From Candidatus Latescibacterota bacterium (GTDB taxonomy: Bacteria > Latescibacterota > UBA2968 > GCA-2709665), in the NCBI GenBank assembly GCA_965208835.1, contig OZ242358.1:768001-832000 (forward strand): a stretch of 64,000 nt of DNA, in the 5' to 3' direction. The notes beneath the pieces were generated by a model. That model saw only the letters and a program-made list of their open reading frames with translations. It made no database searches and was not told the origin of the DNA. This document shows, piece after piece, positions 7,716 through 36,398 of this stretch. Every line of letters starts with the position of its first letter. Position 1 is the stretch's first letter. The translations under genes and the position numbers were made by a program.

Positions 7716-7838
7716 AGACGCAAGACGGGAGAGGGGAGAGATTGTCTGCCTTGTTAGGCTTCTTCTCGTGCCGGAGACAAGGGAAAATAACATAACGGGC
7801 AAGGATTTCTTCTACCGTCTAACGTCTCCCGTCTACCC
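7716..7838 (+). repeat. Dispersed repeat family R1 (heptamer-flanked element), copy 1
   Basis: Core GAGAGATT..CCTTGT..CTTCTCGTGCCGGAG..GGGCAAGGATTTCTTCTACCGTCT, shared with 5 other intergenic sites. Confidence 0.8.
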
Positions 7839-17668: not shown

Positions 17669-17692
17669 AGCGCGGCTGAGCGGAGCGAAGCC
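17669..17692 (+). repeat. Small hairpin element (S23 family)
   Basis: GGCT-GAGCGGAGCGA-AGCC; same 11-nt GAG..CGA loop as the 30548 and 32211 units. Confidence 0.5.
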
Positions 17693-29776: not shown

Positions 29777-30421
29777 ATGGATACACTGCAACTCGCGGCG
29801 CCCTCTAATGCCTTTTTCCTGTTCAACGGCAGGGACCTCAGCAACTGGACCGCCCGGGACGGCGGCGATCCCGGCTGGACCGTGGAAGACGGTGTCCTTC
29901 AGGTCGCGCCCCGGACGGGTGACATCATCCACACCGAGCCGCTGACCGATTTCTATCTTCACCTGGAATTCCGTTGTCCCGACATGCCCGAAGCCACGGG
30001 ACAGGCCAAAGGCAACAGCGGGGTGTTTTTGCAAGCCCTCTACGAGATTCAGGTCCTGGATTCCTCCCACGTCAACATTCCGGGCACCGGCGACTGCGGC
30101 GCTTTTTACCTTGAGTCCGCCCCACTCGTGAACGCCTGCAGACCCGCCATGGAGTGGCAGACGTACGATATCTGCTTCCGGGCGCCCCGCCTTGACGAGT
30201 CCGGCGACGTGTCCGAACACGCCCGCGCCACCGTTCTCCAGAACGGCATCGTGATTCAGAACAACGTGCAGATATCAGGCCCCACAGGATCCGCCTCCGG
30301 AATGACGGTCGGAACCTCCGGGCCGCTGCGCCTGCAGGACCACGGAGACCGCGTCGCCTACCGCAACATCTGGGCCGTTCCGCTTCCGTCAAAGGGATCC
30401 GATACGTACGAACCGCAATAA
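29777..30421 (+). CDS. DUF1080 (3-keto-disaccharide hydrolase-like) protein
   Basis: LFNGRDLSNW, GNSGVF, YEIQVLD, WQTYDI, LQDHG...YRNIW. Confidence 0.9.
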   Translation: MDTLQLAAPSNAFFLFNGRDLSNWTARDGGDPGWTVEDGVLQVAPRTGDIIHTEPLTDFYLHLEFRCPDMPEATGQAKGNSGVFLQALYEIQVLDSSHVNIPGTGDCGAFYLESAPLVNACRPAMEWQTYDICFRAPRLDESGDVSEHARATVLQNGIVIQNNVQISGPTGSASGMTVGTSGPLRLQDHGDRVAYRNIWAVPLPSKGSDTYEPQ

Positions 30422-30547
30422 CATTCGCGACGGGAGAAAAGCAAACCGGCAGATTAGACTTTCGGATACTGTCCCGAGAACGCATCACTATTCTGCTGCC
30501 GATTTATCCCGACCAGATGCGCCGGTGTAGGTGGAGTCTTGCGAAAC

Positions 30548-30650
30548 GTGGTCATTGAGCTTGTCGAAATGCCCGCGTTTCGATACCCCCTTGAACAGGC
30601 CGGGTCTGCTTACTTACCTTCGCCGACCCTTCGACAAGCTCAGGGAGCGG
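30548..30650. repeat. Inverted pair of S23 hairpin units
   Basis: TGAGCTTGTCGAA (30556-68) / TTCGACAAGCTCA (30630-42). Confidence 0.75.
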
Positions 30651-30672
30651 CTCAGATCTGAGAAACGATCCC

Positions 30673-31269
30673 ATGACCGACACGATCGACCTCGCCAGCC
30701 TTGACACAGACGCCGACCTCCTCAGGTTCGCTCTGAACGGAAGCTGCGTCGACGGCCCGTCATTCGAGACCTGGAGGCGGGCGCGATCATTCATCGCATC
30801 CGAGATCCATCGCCCGGGAACCGTGCTGGATATCGGCTGCGCCAACGGTTTCCTCCTGCGGTGCCTCCAGGAATGGTCCGATCACGCGCTCACGCCGTTC
30901 GGTATCGACTCCAGCGCGGGCAGGGCTCGGGATATCGCCAGGTTCTTTCCCTCGCAGGGAGACCATTTCGCCCGTCTTCCCGCGGAGCGGTTGGGCGAAA
31001 TCGACGCTCAGGGTCTTCCCGGAAAGTACGATTTCATCTATTGGGCCGTCTGGGACAATTACGCATTCGATTGTCAGGACCGGATCGATCTGCTTACACA
31101 CGCTTACGATAGCGTGAAAGACGACGGACGGCTGATTCTGGGTTTCTACGACCGCGAGCCCGAGATAATCGAAAACAAAATCGCCCGGATTCAGGACATC
31201 AATCTCGGGCACGCGGTCCGCGTGGCGAATCCCGACGGGCCGCAGGTACTTCTCAGGATATCAAGATAG
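30673..31269 (+). CDS. Class I SAM-dependent methyltransferase
   Basis: VLDIGCANGFL, GID, YDFI, GRLILG. Confidence 0.75.
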   Translation: MTDTIDLASLDTDADLLRFALNGSCVDGPSFETWRRARSFIASEIHRPGTVLDIGCANGFLLRCLQEWSDHALTPFGIDSSAGRARDIARFFPSQGDHFARLPAERLGEIDAQGLPGKYDFIYWAVWDNYAFDCQDRIDLLTHAYDSVKDDGRLILGFYDREPEIIENKIARIQDINLGHAVRVANPDGPQVLLRISR

Positions 31270-31313
31270 CAGAGGCTGGAAGAGAGGAGCAGATCCGACA
31301 GGACGAAATTCGG

Positions 31314-31410
31314 CTCACACAAAGACACAATGACACAAAGACGCAAAGGAAAACCTGGAACAGCAAAAGGCGGGCAACCACAAGGGTTGCCCCTACAAAT
31401 GCAAAACAGG
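31314..31410 (-). repeat. Composite module: 8-mer GACACAAA array + GTAG REP (31372-31396)
   Basis: Reverse-complement homolog of 20573..20672. Confidence 0.7.
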
Positions 31411-31535
31411 CGCAGAAAAGCCGGTGACCGGCCGGTCGCCCCTGCCACGAATCGACATCGCCTGGTCATTTCGCTAACCGCGGGTCGCGGAGGGGTCCTC
31501 TTCCGTCTTACCTCTCCCGTCTACCCTTGTTTCAT

Positions 31536-32000
31536 TCATCTCTTGATGACGTCCTCGAACTCCTGGAACATCTCGATGCTGATCCCGTCCGGATCCAGTG
31601 CATACATGGCGCGGGCAACCACCACGCCGTCGCGGTCCACGTCAGTGGGCGGATTGATGGACCCGAACCCCGCCTCTGTAAGTTGTGCGTACATCGCGTC
31701 CACGTCGTCCACTTCGAACGCCACGTGCGATGCGCCCAGGTACCTGTTTTCCTGGGGTCGCGCCTCAACCTCCGGATGGACGTATTGAACGAGTTCAAGT
31801 ATAAACTCGTTCACGGGATGCCGAAGAATCGCAATATTCAGATGGACCTTGTCGTAACCCAGAATCGTATCGTACGCAGGCAGGTCCCTGCGCTCGGATA
31901 TCCGCACCAGTTCCATCCCGAGCAGGTCCCGGTAGAACGAAACCGAACGATCCAGGTCCGAGACGGTAAATCCATGGTGGTGCCCCATTACAATGCCCAT
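31536..32000 (-). CDS. VOC/glyoxalase family protein
   Basis: HHGFTVSDLDRSVSFYRDLLG, HVAFEVDD, DPDGISIE. Confidence 0.92.
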   Translation of the reverse strand: MGIVMGHHHGFTVSDLDRSVSFYRDLLGMELVRISERRDLPAYDTILGYDKVHLNIAILRHPVNEFILELVQYVHPEVEARPQENRYLGASHVAFEVDDVDAMYAQLTEAGFGSINPPTDVDRDGVVVARAMYALDPDGISIEMFQEFEDVIKR

Positions 32001-32210
32001 GTCTCTTCACTCCCTGAAAGCCGACGGCGGTGAGGATGAAATTGAATCACCTGCCGAAAAGGCGCCATCGATTGCTGTTCGTACGAAAATCGTACCGATA
32101 TTTACCTCTCTATGTCATACGAAGTTATAGAGACCGCTTTAGTCAATATATAGCCGGGAGTGATAAAATGCCGACATTTTTCGCGCCTCTCGGACGTGCA
32201 TTTTCGTAGC

Positions 32211-32286
32211 GTGTTCATTGAGCTTGCCTGCATTGCGTGTGCTGAGCCGGTCGAAGCGAGTCTGTCGAAATGTCGAAATGCCCGCG
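32211..32286 (+). repeat. Three nested 23-nt S23 hairpin units
   Basis: Removing two 23-nt inserts restores a sequence matching 30548-30577 at 29/30 positions. Confidence 0.8.
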
Positions 32287-32349
32287 CTACACTATCCTGT
32301 CGTTGCCGCTCGGCGACCCTTCGACCCCGACGTTCTTCCGTGGATTCAG

Positions 32350-32376
32350 GGAACCCGCGGCCCTTAACCGTCGTAT
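32350..32376 (+). promoter_or_regulatory. Possible ECF-type promoter
   Basis: GGAAC-N17-CGTAT upstream of the secreted thioredoxin gene. Confidence 0.3.
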
Positions 32377-32596
32377 ATAAGGCATCAGTCACGGTGACCC
32401 GTCGACTGTTCGGAATGCAACCCGGCAGACGCCGGGCCGTCCGGCGCGAATATCTGCTGACCCTTTCGTCTCCAATGAGGGGGACCGGAGCAGCGGCCAT
32501 GCGTCCATTCCGAAACCCGTCCAGGCAAGGCGCGCGTCCATCATCGGGCCGCCGCCGGCCTGGTCCTATTTCATTCCGTTTCAAAGGAGTTGTTCC

Positions 32597-33034
32597 ATGC
32601 GCATCCGAAACACGCTTTCTCTCGCAACCCTTTCGTTCTTTCTGATAGCCGGATCCAGCCTTGCGGGCGCCGTGGAGGTGCCGGGCGATGGCGATCCTGC
32701 CCTGTATGTCGTGAAGGTACACGCCGACTGGTGCGGCTCCTGCACGGCGCTGATTCCCGTCCTCGATGAGGTCCGGACCTCTCTTGCGGACAAGCCCGTC
32801 CTCTTTCTCGAGCTCGACGTGACCGACGCGAAGCGCACCTCCCAGTCCCGCCTGCTGGCCGCCGCGCTCGGATTCGAGGAGCCGTTCAAGGCCAACAACA
32901 AGACGGGCCTGGTCCTGCTCATCGATCCGGCGAAGAAGTCGGTCGTGGAAACCCTGACGCGTAAGAATCCCGCGGACGAGATGACTGGCAAGATCAAGGG
33001 GCACATCGCCGCGAGCTGCACGACGACCGAGTGA
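32597..33034 (+). CDS. Secreted thioredoxin-family protein
   Basis: AAGGAG RBS, signal peptide, HADWCGSC. Confidence 0.88.
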   Translation: MRIRNTLSLATLSFFLIAGSSLAGAVEVPGDGDPALYVVKVHADWCGSCTALIPVLDEVRTSLADKPVLFLELDVTDAKRTSQSRLLAAALGFEEPFKANNKTGLVLLIDPAKKSVVETLTRKNPADEMTGKIKGHIAASCTTTE

Positions 33035-36139: not shown

Positions 36140-36398
36140 GTGAGACGTAAGAGGGTAGAGGACCGCACCCCGCCCCACCACCTGGTGAGAAGGTAGACGG
36201 TAGAGGGTAGAGGACCACACCCCGCGCCACCACCTGGTGAGACGCAAGACGTGAGACGGGAGAGATTTCCCGCCTTGTAAGGATTCTTCTCGTGCCGGAG
36301 GCAGAAAGGAAAAACACACCGGGCAAGGATATCATCTACCGTCTACCCTCTTACCTCTACCCGTCTTTTTTCTCCCGTCTTACGTCTCCCGTCTCCCC
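36140..36398 (+). repeat. R1 copy 5, with tandem duplication of a 41-nt module (52-nt period)
   Basis: AGAGGGTAGAGGACC.CACCCCGC.CCACCACCTGGTGAGA at 36150 and 36202, then R1 core and heptamer tail. Confidence 0.8.

What the first reader, a model, noticed from the sequence alone, without database searches (positions are those of the whole stretch)
32211..32286. Matryoshka of 23-nt mobile hairpins inserted into one another
Seen: the region parses as GTGTTCATTGAGCTT[GCCTGCATT{GCGTGTGCTGAGCCGGTCGAAGC}GAGTCTGTCGAAAT]GTCGAAATGCCCGCG. The inner unit (32235-57) and the reconstituted middle unit are each exactly 23 nt. Removing both restores a sequence matching the uninterrupted site 30548-30577 at 29/30. 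All units share an 11-nt GAGnnnGTCGA-like loop closed by co-varying stems: ATT/AAT, GCT/AGC, CCCT/AGGG at 30627-45, and GGCT/AGCC at 17674-92. Both insertions occur at TT^G without a clear TSD. Established: very small (~21-27 nt) dispersed mobile repeats are known from Nostoc genomes, with mechanism unresolved as far as I recall. Inference: an ultra-small element mobilised in trans by an unknown enzyme.
Basis: partly seen in the sequence, partly recalled or inferred. Interest (0 to 1): 0.78.

Follow-up and report, generated by a model that had tools for sequence, protein, structure and literature searches.

The report
Nested 23-base hairpin repeats, recently gained
A spacer between two genes holds tiny 23-base DNA hairpins sitting inside one another like nested dolls; close strains lack them, so they arrived recently by a copying process whose agent is unknown.

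Summary
Window 32216-32280 is a 19-nt hairpin (4-bp stem, 11-nt loop). Its loop carries a 46-nt insert: a 23-nt unit with a second 23-nt unit inside it. Genome-wide, deleting exactly 23 nt around a perfect hairpin restores a perfect host hairpin in 23 of 149 cases. Other lengths give 0, except 24 nt, which gives 1. At the orthologous site three sister species are empty, one has one unit, and this genome has two. Contigs from two other samples, about 98-99% identical, skip exactly these 46 nt. So the gain is recent, and it is neither an assembly artefact nor slippage.

The loop core is not genus-specific. Nesting was found in far fewer: 15 of 15 genomes of this genus and one other of the 132 searched in the class.

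First-level hairpins ride on a MITE-like element with inverted ends. No Y1/Y2 HUH, IS110, reverse transcriptase or TnpB gene was found.

The mechanism is unresolved. I favour loop-directed insertion by an unidentified activity; short-homology copy-choice is the main rival.

The parts
32216..32226 (+). Outer (host) hairpin, 5' half: stem CATT plus loop positions 1-7 (GAGCTTG).
   Evidence: Read. It joins directly to 32273-32280 in the X5 and X6 contigs and in the G006, G002 and G012 orthologues.
32227..32272 (+). 46-nt insert. This is the middle 23-nt unit (leader CCTG, stem CATT/AATG, loop GAGTCTGTCGA) interrupted after its loop G1 by the inner unit.
   Evidence: Two near-identical contigs skip exactly 46 nt (joint 32224>32271, ambiguity 2 nt). 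The same composite is a paralogue in another host at G000:1830842-1830912.
32236..32258 (+). Inner 23-nt unit: leader CGTG, stem TGCT/AGCG (the outer pair is T.G), loop GAGCCGGTCGA.
   Evidence: All 7 of 7 units of this type in the genome sit after loop position G1 of a host hairpin.
32273..32280 (+). Outer (host) hairpin, 3' half: loop positions 8-11 (TCGA) plus stem AATG.
32206..32213 (+). 5' arm (GTAGCGTG) of the longer palindrome that encloses the host hairpin.
   Evidence: It pairs with 32283-32290 in the DNA and RNA folds. Other copies of this hairpin family carry different but again complementary arms.
32283..32290 (+). 3' arm (CGCGCTAC) of the enclosing palindrome.
30553..30571 (+). 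Un-nested copy of the same host hairpin (CATT GAGCTTGTCGA AATG). It serves as the empty reference site.
   Evidence: The orthologous site in G009 carries a 23-nt unit after loop position 7.
30616..30659 (-). Inverted partner module. A CCCT/AGGG hairpin (30627-30645) with leader CGCT sits between the arms CTGAGC and TCGGCGAAGG.
   Evidence: There are 24 copies of this arrangement in the genome. No copy of the outer arms without the inner hairpin was found.
17674..17692 (+). Related hairpin: GGCT GAGCGGAGCGA AGCC.
   Evidence: It has a 4-bp stem and an 11-nt loop of the variant form.

Best explanation
What it is. Window 32216-32280 is a resident 19-nt hairpin module. It has a 4-bp variable stem closed by T-A and a conserved 11-nt loop, GAGCYTGTCGA. 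The module is part of a larger dispersed repeat. It has recently received a 46-nt insert in its loop, between loop positions 7 and 8. The insert is itself a 23-nt module (4-nt leader plus 19-nt hairpin) that already carried a second 23-nt module between its loop positions 1 and 2.

Shown:
- The units are discrete.
- The 23-nt period is specific.
- The stems co-vary.
- The insert is absent from near-identical strains and from three sister species.
- A few unit types recur, each with its own insertion position in the loop.
- Nests occur in every genome of the genus that was searched.

Inferred mechanism. A non-autonomous hairpin module is copied or moved as single-stranded DNA into the exposed single-stranded loop of another hairpin, or into other slipped or looped DNA. 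A nick-and-join activity supplied in trans does this. It measures its cuts from the base of the hairpin, 4 nt on the 5' side and 0 nt on the 3' side, and it leaves no target duplication. The agent is not any recognisable HUH, IS110, TnpB or reverse-transcriptase protein of this genome, so it is either an unrecognised enzyme or a general host activity.

First-level hairpins are spread separately, as cargo of a roughly 200-270-nt MITE-like element with inverted ends.
For: - **Specific 23-nt period.** Of 149 perfect hairpins, removing 23 nt restores a perfect host hairpin in 23. Removing 24 nt does so in 1. Removing 17-22 or 25-29 nt does so in 0.
- **Orthologous site.** It is empty in G006, G002 and G012, holds one unit in G011 and two in G000. 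The reference site 30548-30577 is filled in G009.
- **Near-identical strains.** Contigs of runs X5 and X6 join 32224 to 32271, skipping 46 nt. An X1 contig carries the nest with 0 differences over 1001 nt.
- **Insert rather than local duplication.** Nested units have stems different from their hosts. The host flanks identify the host family; for example, CATT units lie inside hosts with CCCT stems and the flanks typical of those families.
- **Type-specific positions.** All 7 of 7 TGCT-type units lie after loop G1, in hosts with three different stems. Of CATT-type units, 6 of 9 lie strictly after loop G7.
- **Unit conserved with its leader elsewhere.** The unit CGGT plus the CCCT hairpin occurs as 3 head-to-tail copies in viral contig L239.
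- **A target that is not a hairpin.** In L066 the unit lies inside a heptamer tandem array.
- **Nesting needs more than hairpins.** The nest junction pattern occurs in 16 of 132 genomes of the class: 15 of 15 in the genus and G033. It occurs in 0 of the other hairpin-bearing genomes.
- **Stem co-variation.** There are 7 distinct perfectly paired stems in G000, 10 in loci from other phyla and 9 in viral loci.
Against: - **No enzyme found in G000.** The searches gave 0 hits for Y1_Tnp, IS110, RVT_1, the TnpB zinc ribbon, Transposase_31 and DDE_Tnp_1. Y2_Tnp also gave 0 hits, but its control rang in no genome.
- **Few insertion sequences.** The only ones seen are an IS3-family pair and an IS1595-family pair.
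- **No recurrent neighbour gene.** At most 5 of the other-phyla genome loci share a protein family. The viral loci share only a phage head module.
- **Nests favour related loops.** Nearly all nests lie in loops homologous to the donor's own host loop. Few junction types recur. The host loop beside an insert often differs from the empty orthologue: GAGCAT in G011 and GAGCAG in G009, against GAGCTT. These points fit copying of a donor nest together with its flanks.
- **No strand or direction bias.** There is no bias with replication direction and none with gene direction (63 same, 53 opposite).
- **Weak predicted folding.** The hairpins are not unusually stable (z from -0.4 to -1.4).
- **No intermediate seen.** Only contigs could be laid, so no excision or insertion intermediate was observed.
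Confidence: 0.4

Rival explanations
1. Copy-choice, or short-patch ectopic gene conversion. No dedicated enzyme is involved. During replication or repair the nascent strand copying a hairpin loop switches to a paralogous hairpin that already carries a nest. It uses the conserved loop halves (TGAGCnTG on the left, TCGAA on the right), or the longer flanks of the repeat family, as homology. It copies the nest and then switches back. Empty donors would remove nests in the same way.
For: - Nests lie almost only in homologous loops, in one register, without target duplication.
- The repertoire of junctions is small and shared across all 15 genomes of the genus.
- A 46-nt composite moves as one piece.
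- The loop positions flanking an insert differ from those of the empty orthologue and match a common nest-bearing subfamily, GAGCATG+CCTG+CATT.
- Partial forms exist that lack the 8-nt right arm (G000:4166425).
- No candidate transposase, HUH enzyme or reverse transcriptase was found.
Against: - The homology would be only 5-8 nt where host and donor stems differ.
- It does not explain how the first nest of each type arose.
- It does not explain why the unit always starts 4 nt before the stem.
- It does not explain the unit inside a heptamer array or the head-to-tail arrays.
- Genomes with 20-40 hairpins and no nests exist.
Confidence: 0.3
2. The nest is ancestral and static. The nested forms spread only as parts of the larger MITE-like repeat. 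The empty sites in other strains and species would then be precise secondary deletions.
For: - The carrier element is itself present or absent between species and has inverted ends.
- In G033 one 24-nt junction type recurs on one larger repeat.
- The direct repeats inside a nest (15-nt left arms, 8-nt right arms) could drive deletions, and partial forms exist.
Against: - A precise 46-nt loss needs only 2 nt of junction homology. It would have had to happen in X5, X6, G006, G002 and G012, while the surrounding repeat stayed intact.
- The same unit types sit in host families with different flanks.
Confidence: 0.1
3. REP/REPIN-like elements mobilised by a RAYT or another IS200/IS605-type HUH tyrosine transposase acting on single-stranded hairpins.
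For: - They are short extragenic hairpins: 136 of 151 core motifs are intergenic.
- Inverted doublets are common.
- Insertion occurs at a fixed place without target duplication, as with IS200/IS605. That property of IS200/IS605 is my established knowledge, not a result obtained here.
Against: - There is no Y1_Tnp match in the six-frame search of G000, while the control rang in 6 of 14 genomes.
- There is no Y2_Tnp match (weak, because the control was silent).
- I saw no GTAG tag at the unit ends in the listing. The tag is defined in passages of PMC3733652.
- No gene is flanked by the hairpins in the REPtron manner.
Confidence: 0.05
4. An RNA intermediate. The hairpin is transcribed, inserted at the RNA level or reverse-transcribed, and fixed in DNA. 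This was suggested for the Nostoc small dispersed repeats (recalled; that paper could not be read here).
For: Among stems with one non-Watson-Crick pair, T.G is the most common type: 9 of 19, against 1 C.A. That would be tolerated in RNA, although G.T pairs also form in DNA.
Against: - There is no RVT_1 match in G000, while the control rang in 3 of 14 genomes.
- There is no orientation bias relative to the flanking genes (63 against 53).
- Most of the T.G pairs are at the outermost stem position.
Confidence: 0.04
5. Assembly artefact or simple replication slippage.
For: The region is repetitive.
Against: - An independent contig of run X1 spans 31800-32800 with 0 differences.
- The three stacked units have different stems and leaders, which tandem slippage cannot produce.
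- The same architecture recurs in all 15 genomes of the genus that were searched.
Confidence: 0.01

Closest known systems
Small dispersed repeats (SDR) of Nostoc punctiforme and relatives (Elhai et al. 2008, Genome Res 18:1484). Content is recalled from the abstract. The paper is not held. I saw only its entry in a reference list and one mention in the Discussion of PMC3116915.
   Same: Units of 21-27 nt. A predicted hairpin supported by compensatory changes. Copies found inside copies of themselves (nested insertions) and inside heptamer tandem arrays. Evidence of recent mobility. Mechanism unknown.
   Different: The SDRs were reported as confined to one cyanobacterial subgroup. Here the host's relative is labelled Candidatus Latescibacterota, and the loop core occurs in many phyla and in viral contigs. 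I could not compare the sequences, because no SDR sequence is at hand. An RNA route, as proposed there, is disfavoured here because no reverse transcriptase was found.
REP / REPIN elements with RAYT transposases (PMC3116915: abstract and passages seen).
   Same: Short extragenic hairpins, often as inverted doublets, with tens to hundreds of copies and differences between related genomes.
   Different: There is no GTAG tag and no RAYT or other Y1 HUH gene. REPINs are not reported, in the passages I read, to nest inside each other's loops. Here the conserved part is the loop and the variable part is the stem.
CGTC-tagged REPs (Di Nocera et al. 2013, PMC3733652: abstract and passages seen).
   Same: A hairpin repeat superfamily spread over several phyla that lacks any dedicated transposase.
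   Different: Those have an unpaired terminal CGTC tag, 8-9-bp stems and 4-5-nt loops. Here the stems are 4 bp, the loop is a conserved 11 nt, and there is no CGTC tag.
Bacterial interspersed mosaic elements and MITEs. Classical MITE properties and the loop-specific insertion of IS1397 into palindromic units are recalled; I saw only the reference-list title.
   Same: The first-level hairpins are modules of a mosaic element of about 200-270 nt with inverted ends. That element is present or absent between species. A hairpin loop serves as the insertion target.
   Different: What inserts here is a 23-nt hairpin without inverted ends or a transposase gene, not an insertion sequence.
Rfam RF02901 AaHKsRNA41 (Aggregatibacter sRNA 41).
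   Same: Its consensus holds an inverted pair of the same core, CUGAgCUUGcCGAAG ... gUUCGgCAAGcUCAg.
   Different: The match is far below the family threshold (16.8 bits against 97; E = 0.65). This is not a member; the shared part is the repeat core only.

Membership tests
Very small nested dispersed repeats (Nostoc SDR type) | Unit length of 21-27 nt, dispersed in many copies. | tested here: met
   23-nt units. Seven unit and context families with 7 to 27 copies each in G000.
Very small nested dispersed repeats (Nostoc SDR type) | Copies inserted within copies of themselves. | tested here: met
   29 nests in G000. Nests in 15 of 15 genomes of the genus.
Very small nested dispersed repeats (Nostoc SDR type) | Hairpin supported by compensatory changes. 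| tested here: met
   131 of 214 motifs are fully paired, against a shuffle maximum of 51. There are 7 distinct paired stems in G000 and more elsewhere.
Very small nested dispersed repeats (Nostoc SDR type) | Recent mobility shown by filled and empty sites. | tested here: met
Very small nested dispersed repeats (Nostoc SDR type) | Sequence relationship to SDR1-8 and a cyanobacterial host. | not testable with these tools
   The paper and its sequences are not held. The host's relative is labelled Candidatus Latescibacterota, so the host criterion is not met.
REP/REPIN-RAYT | A RAYT (Y1 HUH transposase) gene in the genome, flanked by the repeats. | tested here: not met
   0 matches to PF01797 in G000, with a positive control. 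The 3 genes flanked by motifs are an ABC-type permease, a lectin-fold protein and a protein with no family.
REP/REPIN-RAYT | A conserved GTAG tag at the 5' end of the palindrome. | tested here: not met
   Leaders are CNTG, CGGT, TGGT or CGCT. The tag is defined in passages of PMC3733652.
CGTC-tagged REP | A terminal unpaired CGTC tag, 8-9-bp stem and 4-5-nt loop. | tested here: not met
   4-bp stems, an 11-nt loop and no CGTC tag.
MITE (applies to the carrier element, not to the 23-nt unit) | Terminal inverted repeats, no coding capacity, and presence or absence at orthologous sites. | tested here: met
   Ends TGTCCC..AAAT and its complement in 4 of 6 aligned copies. The element of about 200 nt is present in G000, G011 and G013. 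It is absent in G006, G009 and G008 by reading and in G012, G010, G014 and G003 by abutting matches. A possible 6-nt duplication, GGTGTC, was read once.
MITE (applied to the 23-nt unit itself) | Terminal inverted repeats and a target-site duplication. | tested here: not met
   TGCT-type junctions are unambiguous and show no duplication. The unit is asymmetric: it has a leader on the 5' side only.
Any Rfam family | A score at or above the family's gathering threshold. | tested here: not met
   0 hits over the whole window. Only sub-threshold hits in 30400-32450.

The most novel reading that the evidence does not exclude
The 19-nt hairpin, with its conserved 13-nt core TGAGCYTGTCGAA and free stems, is a replicator found across phyla and carried by phages. 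In some lineages it multiplies by inserting 23-nt copies of itself into exposed single-stranded DNA (loops of its own kind, slipped tandem repeats). It does so without any transposase, HUH enzyme or reverse transcriptase of a known family, that is, by using a general host activity or an unrecognised enzyme class. That would make it the smallest mobile DNA with a distribution across phyla, and it would tie the unexplained Nostoc elements to a general bacterial phenomenon.
Probability: 0.2. Interest if true: 0.9.

Novelty: new variant of a known kind. Interest (0 to 1): 0.72.

Why it matters
Mobile DNA is normally defined by the enzyme that moves it. Here a 23-nt unit, far too small to encode anything, has been gained within a species in a genome where I found none of the usual candidate enzymes.

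If the units truly insert, an unknown DNA-joining activity is at work, either a new enzyme or a new use of a host one. This genus would then be a workable system for finding it: it offers many filled and empty sites, unit types with different insertion positions, and related genomes that have hairpins but no nests.

If the units instead spread by template switching across 5-8 nt of loop homology, they are a natural reporter of hairpin-induced copy-choice.

In either case, the loop core's presence in many phyla and in viral contigs suggests a widespread hairpin module. My four full-text searches by sequence and peptide strings and by topic found no description of it.

Tried and rejected
- **Rfam.** There were 0 hits at gathering thresholds over the window. 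In 30400-32450 only weak chance-level hits appeared: isrG at E = 0.058 and AaHKsRNA41 at E = 0.65.
- **Thermodynamic folding of 32205-32292.** The fold is not better than shuffles as DNA or as RNA, on either strand (z = -0.94, -0.38, -1.42). The hairpins rest on co-variation, not on predicted stability.
- **Expression.** No RNA holder was listed among the runs, so nothing can be said about it.
- **Replication-strand bias.** None was seen.
- **Gene-direction bias.** None was seen. The gene calls come from my own crude caller.
- **Recurrent neighbour genes around the 19-mer.** At most 5 of the other-phyla genome loci share a family. In the viral loci the shared genes are portal, protease, major capsid and adaptor. 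That marks a vehicle, not an enzyme.
- **Indel spectrum of G000 against 400 kb of G009.** The two are too diverged (about 87% identity) for a clean spectrum. Only one clean 23-nt event and one 45-nt event were found.
- **Orthologues of a hairpin with unusual flanks at G000:844831.** The region is not conserved in the genus.
- **Un-nested copies of the outer arms of the CGCT+CCCT module.** None were found.
- **Literature.** The paper on the Nostoc elements is not held. Searches for the core DNA strings, for short peptide strings and for small dispersed repeats with nesting found nothing relevant.

Full report
**Observation.** Reading the window confirms the parse. The host is CATT GAGCTTG / TCGA AATG (32216-32226 and 32273-32280). 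A 46-nt block (32227-32272) interrupts it. The block is a unit with leader CCTG, stem CATT/AATG and loop GAGTCTGTCGA. That unit is itself interrupted after its first loop base by a 23-nt unit (32236-32258) with leader CGTG, stem TGCT/AGCG and loop GAGCCGGTCGA. Removing both gives a 30-mer that matches 30548-30577 at 29 of 30. The stretch lies in the spacer between a glyoxalase-fold gene (31536-32000, minus strand) and a thioredoxin-like gene (32597-33034, plus strand).

**Chance.**
- TGAGNNNGTCGAA occurs 3 times in the window against 0.15 expected, and 0 of 100 shuffles reach 3.
- The genome (G000) is one contig of 5,180,620 bases with 59.5% G+C. It holds GAGCTTGTCGA 107 times; I calculate about 2.5 expected.
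- Of 662 GAGnnnGTCGA sites, 129 have exactly 4 flanking complementary pairs and 8 have 5.
- Of 214 core motifs, 131 are fully paired, against a mean of 34 and a maximum of 51 in 500 shuffles of the 3' stems. They use 7 different stems.
- The pair next to the loop is always T-A in the perfectly paired G000 hairpins, so the conserved core is 13 nt there and three pairs co-vary.

**The 23-nt rule.** I took each of the 149 perfect hairpins in G000, removed a block of 17 to 29 nt containing it, and asked whether a perfect hairpin forms across the joint.
- Removing 23 nt restores a hairpin in 23 cases with a 4-nt leader, 19 with a 3-nt leader and 8 with a 2-nt leader.
- Removing 24 nt restores one in 1 case. 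All other lengths give 0.
- When G.T pairs are allowed there are 29 nests, and the frame of a 4-nt leader plus the 19-nt hairpin is valid in 28 of them.
- Nested units often have stems unlike their host's. Where they do, the flanks outside identify the outer hairpin as the resident one. This excludes tandem slippage and local self-duplication as a general origin.

**Filled and empty sites.** Synteny around the finding is kept in all 14 other genomes of the genus.
- At the orthologous place G006, G002 and G012 have the plain hairpin. G011 has one 23-nt unit and G000 has two. G009, G005, G004 and G007 have a different, shorter spacer.
- Public runs add a closer comparison. The stretch is held whole by X1-X4 (organism A, probably the source) and in part by other sponge and marine metagenome runs.
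- A contig of X1 covers 31800-32800 with 0 differences.
- A contig of X5 (14 other letters over 955 laid bases) and a contig of X6 (5 other letters and one gap over 670) both join 32224 to 32271, skipping exactly 46 nt.
- These are contigs, so minor variants cannot be seen. They do show that near-identical strains from two other studies have the empty site.
- Gain in the lineage of G000 is the economical reading. Because 46 nt are missing at once, and the same middle-plus-inner composite sits in a hairpin with a different stem at G000:1830842-1830912 (with a decayed copy near 4604767), the two units probably arrived together.

**Unit types and targets**.
- The TGCT-type unit (leader CNTG) has 7 copies in G000. 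All 7 lie between loop bases 1 and 2 of a host, and the hosts have three different stems. Their junctions are unambiguous and show no duplication.
- The CATT-type unit (leader CCTG or CTTG) has 9 copies. Six lie strictly between loop bases 7 and 8, and the rest lie in decayed loops.
- The CCCT-type unit with leader CGGT has 9 copies, 4 of them strictly at that place.
- Other hairpins are fixed parts of larger repeats, with leaders TGGT, CGCT and CTTG and 8 to 27 copies each.

**Carrier element.** Six copies of a composite align over about 270 nt with ends TGTCCC..AAAT and its complement, seen in 4 of the 6. A roughly 200-nt member is present in G000, G011 and G013 and absent at the same place in seven other genomes of the genus. 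I read the empty site in G006, G009 and G008. For G012, G010, G014 and G003 I infer it from abutting matches. So the first-level hairpins are spread as cargo of a MITE-like element, and nesting is a second layer on top. Of 151 core motifs, 136 are intergenic, although only 18% of the genome is intergenic by my crude gene calls. There is no bias in direction.

**Distribution.**
- The CATT 19-mer is found in 14 of 14 other genomes of the genus, 0 of 4 from other genera of the family and 0 of 12 from the neighbouring family.
- A looser 15-mer is patchy across the class. It gives 38-146 copies per genome in this genus and 14-39 in a few others (G015, G021, G031, G033, G046, part of genus g25). It gives 0-4 in most genomes, and the reversed-pattern control gives 0-1.
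- The nest junction pattern occurs in 16 of 132 genomes: all 15 of the genus, and G033. In G033 the insert is 24 nt and is one junction type riding on a larger repeat.
The record titles name, among others, Bacteroidota, Cyanobacteria, Actinomycetota, Pseudomonadota, candidate-phyla-radiation lineages, NC10, Planctomycetota, Acidobacteriota, Dehalococcoidia and Armatimonadota. I calculate about 9 matches expected by chance under uniform composition. The flanks have each host's own composition, so this is not contamination.
- One of these records, labelled Candidatus Latescibacterota, is syntenic with G000 at 80-86% identity. This places the window's organism.
- Outside this lineage nesting is rare. 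Among 139 perfect hairpins in 79 loci, only one (L080) shows a 23-nt nest.
- L066, a Chloroflexaceae record, has the unit inside a heptamer tandem array.
L239 has three head-to-tail copies of the CGGT+CCCT 23-mer. In about ten contigs the hairpin lies beside the major capsid gene of a portal-protease-capsid-adaptor module. Phages are therefore a plausible vehicle between hosts.

**Search for an agent.** Six-frame family searches of G000 gave the following.
- No Y1_Tnp.
- No Y2_Tnp, though the control was silent and this negative is weak.
- No IS110, no RVT_1, no TnpB zinc ribbon, no Transposase_31 and no DDE_Tnp_1.
- One GIY-YIG domain, in a 651-aa ORF.

Self-comparison shows no insertion sequence with three or more copies. 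There is one IS3-family pair and one IS1595-family pair with a DNA methylase. Only 3 of 3439 gene calls have motifs within 300 nt on both sides, and none is recombinase-like. No protein family recurs near the hairpin across phyla.

**Mechanism.** Two readings fit most of the facts.

1. **Loop-directed insertion of a single-stranded hairpin module by a nick-and-join activity.**
   - This activity would measure from the hairpin base.
   - It explains the fixed unit with its 5' leader, the type-specific positions in hosts with unrelated stems, the heptamer-array and head-to-tail cases, and why many hairpin-bearing genomes have no nests.
   - It lacks an enzyme.
2. **Copy-choice or short-patch conversion between paralogous hairpins through the conserved loop halves.**
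   - It explains the restriction to homologous loops and the small shared repertoire of junctions.
   - It also explains the 46-nt composite moving as one piece, the changed loop bases next to the insert in G011 and G009, and the absence of an enzyme.
   - It needs only 5-8 nt of homology in hosts with different stems. It does not explain the first nest of each type.

I put the first at 0.4 and the second at 0.3. The remaining routes are less likely:
- An RNA route is unlikely without a reverse transcriptase.
- A RAYT route is unlikely without a Y1 gene.
- Ancestral nests with repeated precise loss would need several independent 46-nt deletions.

**Comparison with known systems.** The closest described case is the set of small dispersed repeats of Nostoc. 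These are 21-27 nt long, hairpin-forming, nested within themselves and within heptamer arrays, and their mechanism is unknown. I recall this from the abstract, because the paper is not held.
- The present units match that behaviour point for point, but they lie in another phylum, with a loop core found far beyond it.
- They are not REP/RAYT elements and not CGTC-tagged REPs (passages of PMC3733652). They do share with the latter the lack of a dedicated transposase.
- Rfam has no family for them.
- My searches of the held literature for the core strings and for nested small repeats found no description. Papers outside that library, figures and supplements were not searchable.

**Verdict.** This is a real, recently active, self-nesting family of 23-nt hairpin units. 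It is a new variant of a rarely described kind. The breadth of the core motif across phyla was unexpected, and the mechanism is still open.

Noticed in passing
window 7811-7837, 36337-36397; genome-wide: Heptamer tandem arrays (TCTACCG, TCTCCCG and variants) lie at gene borders. The 10-mers AGACGGGAGA and AGACGGTAGA each occur about 240 times in the genome. This resembles the heptamer arrays that I recall being described alongside the Nostoc small repeats.
   Followed up: partly
window 36143-36242: A 52-nt unit is repeated 1.9 times at 91% identity, next to the heptamer arrays.
   Followed up: no
window 31296-31416: A dispersed repeat of about 110 nt between two genes, with many copies at 82-89% identity in all genomes of the genus (query positions 1597-1717).
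   Followed up: no
L026 (G009:C1:709200-709370) and many places in G000: A repeat family of about 170 nt is the most abundant repeat in the genome: 4303 self-match pairs of 150-199 nt. Its relation to the hairpin modules was not examined.
   Followed up: no
window about 32300-32330: Compared with G011, G006 and G002, G000 has lost the inverted partner module downstream of the nest. The break lies at a shared TCGACCC.
   Followed up: partly
window 32014-32329: Four genomes of the genus (G009, G005, G004, G007) have an unrelated, shorter spacer in place of this whole stretch. A contig of run X8 joins 32014 to 32329, skipping 314 nt; what lies between is not known.
   Followed up: partly
G000:C1:219708-222275 and 5118790-5121357: Two identical inverted 2.5-kb copies, each holding an IS1595-family transposase gene and an N6/N4 DNA methylase gene.
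   Followed up: partly
G000:C1:3663635-3665878 and 3760603-3762848: A duplicated (98% identical) 752-aa ORF with no Pfam or NCBIfam family.
   Followed up: no
L056, L098: In a candidate-phyla-radiation record and an Acidobacteriaceae record, the hairpin lies directly beside what looks, by eye, like a tRNA gene end. This was not checked with the tRNA finder.
   Followed up: no
L053, L230: Head-to-tail arrays of the hairpin occur with periods other than 23 nt: 24 nt in a cyanobacterial record and 21 nt in a viral contig.
   Followed up: no
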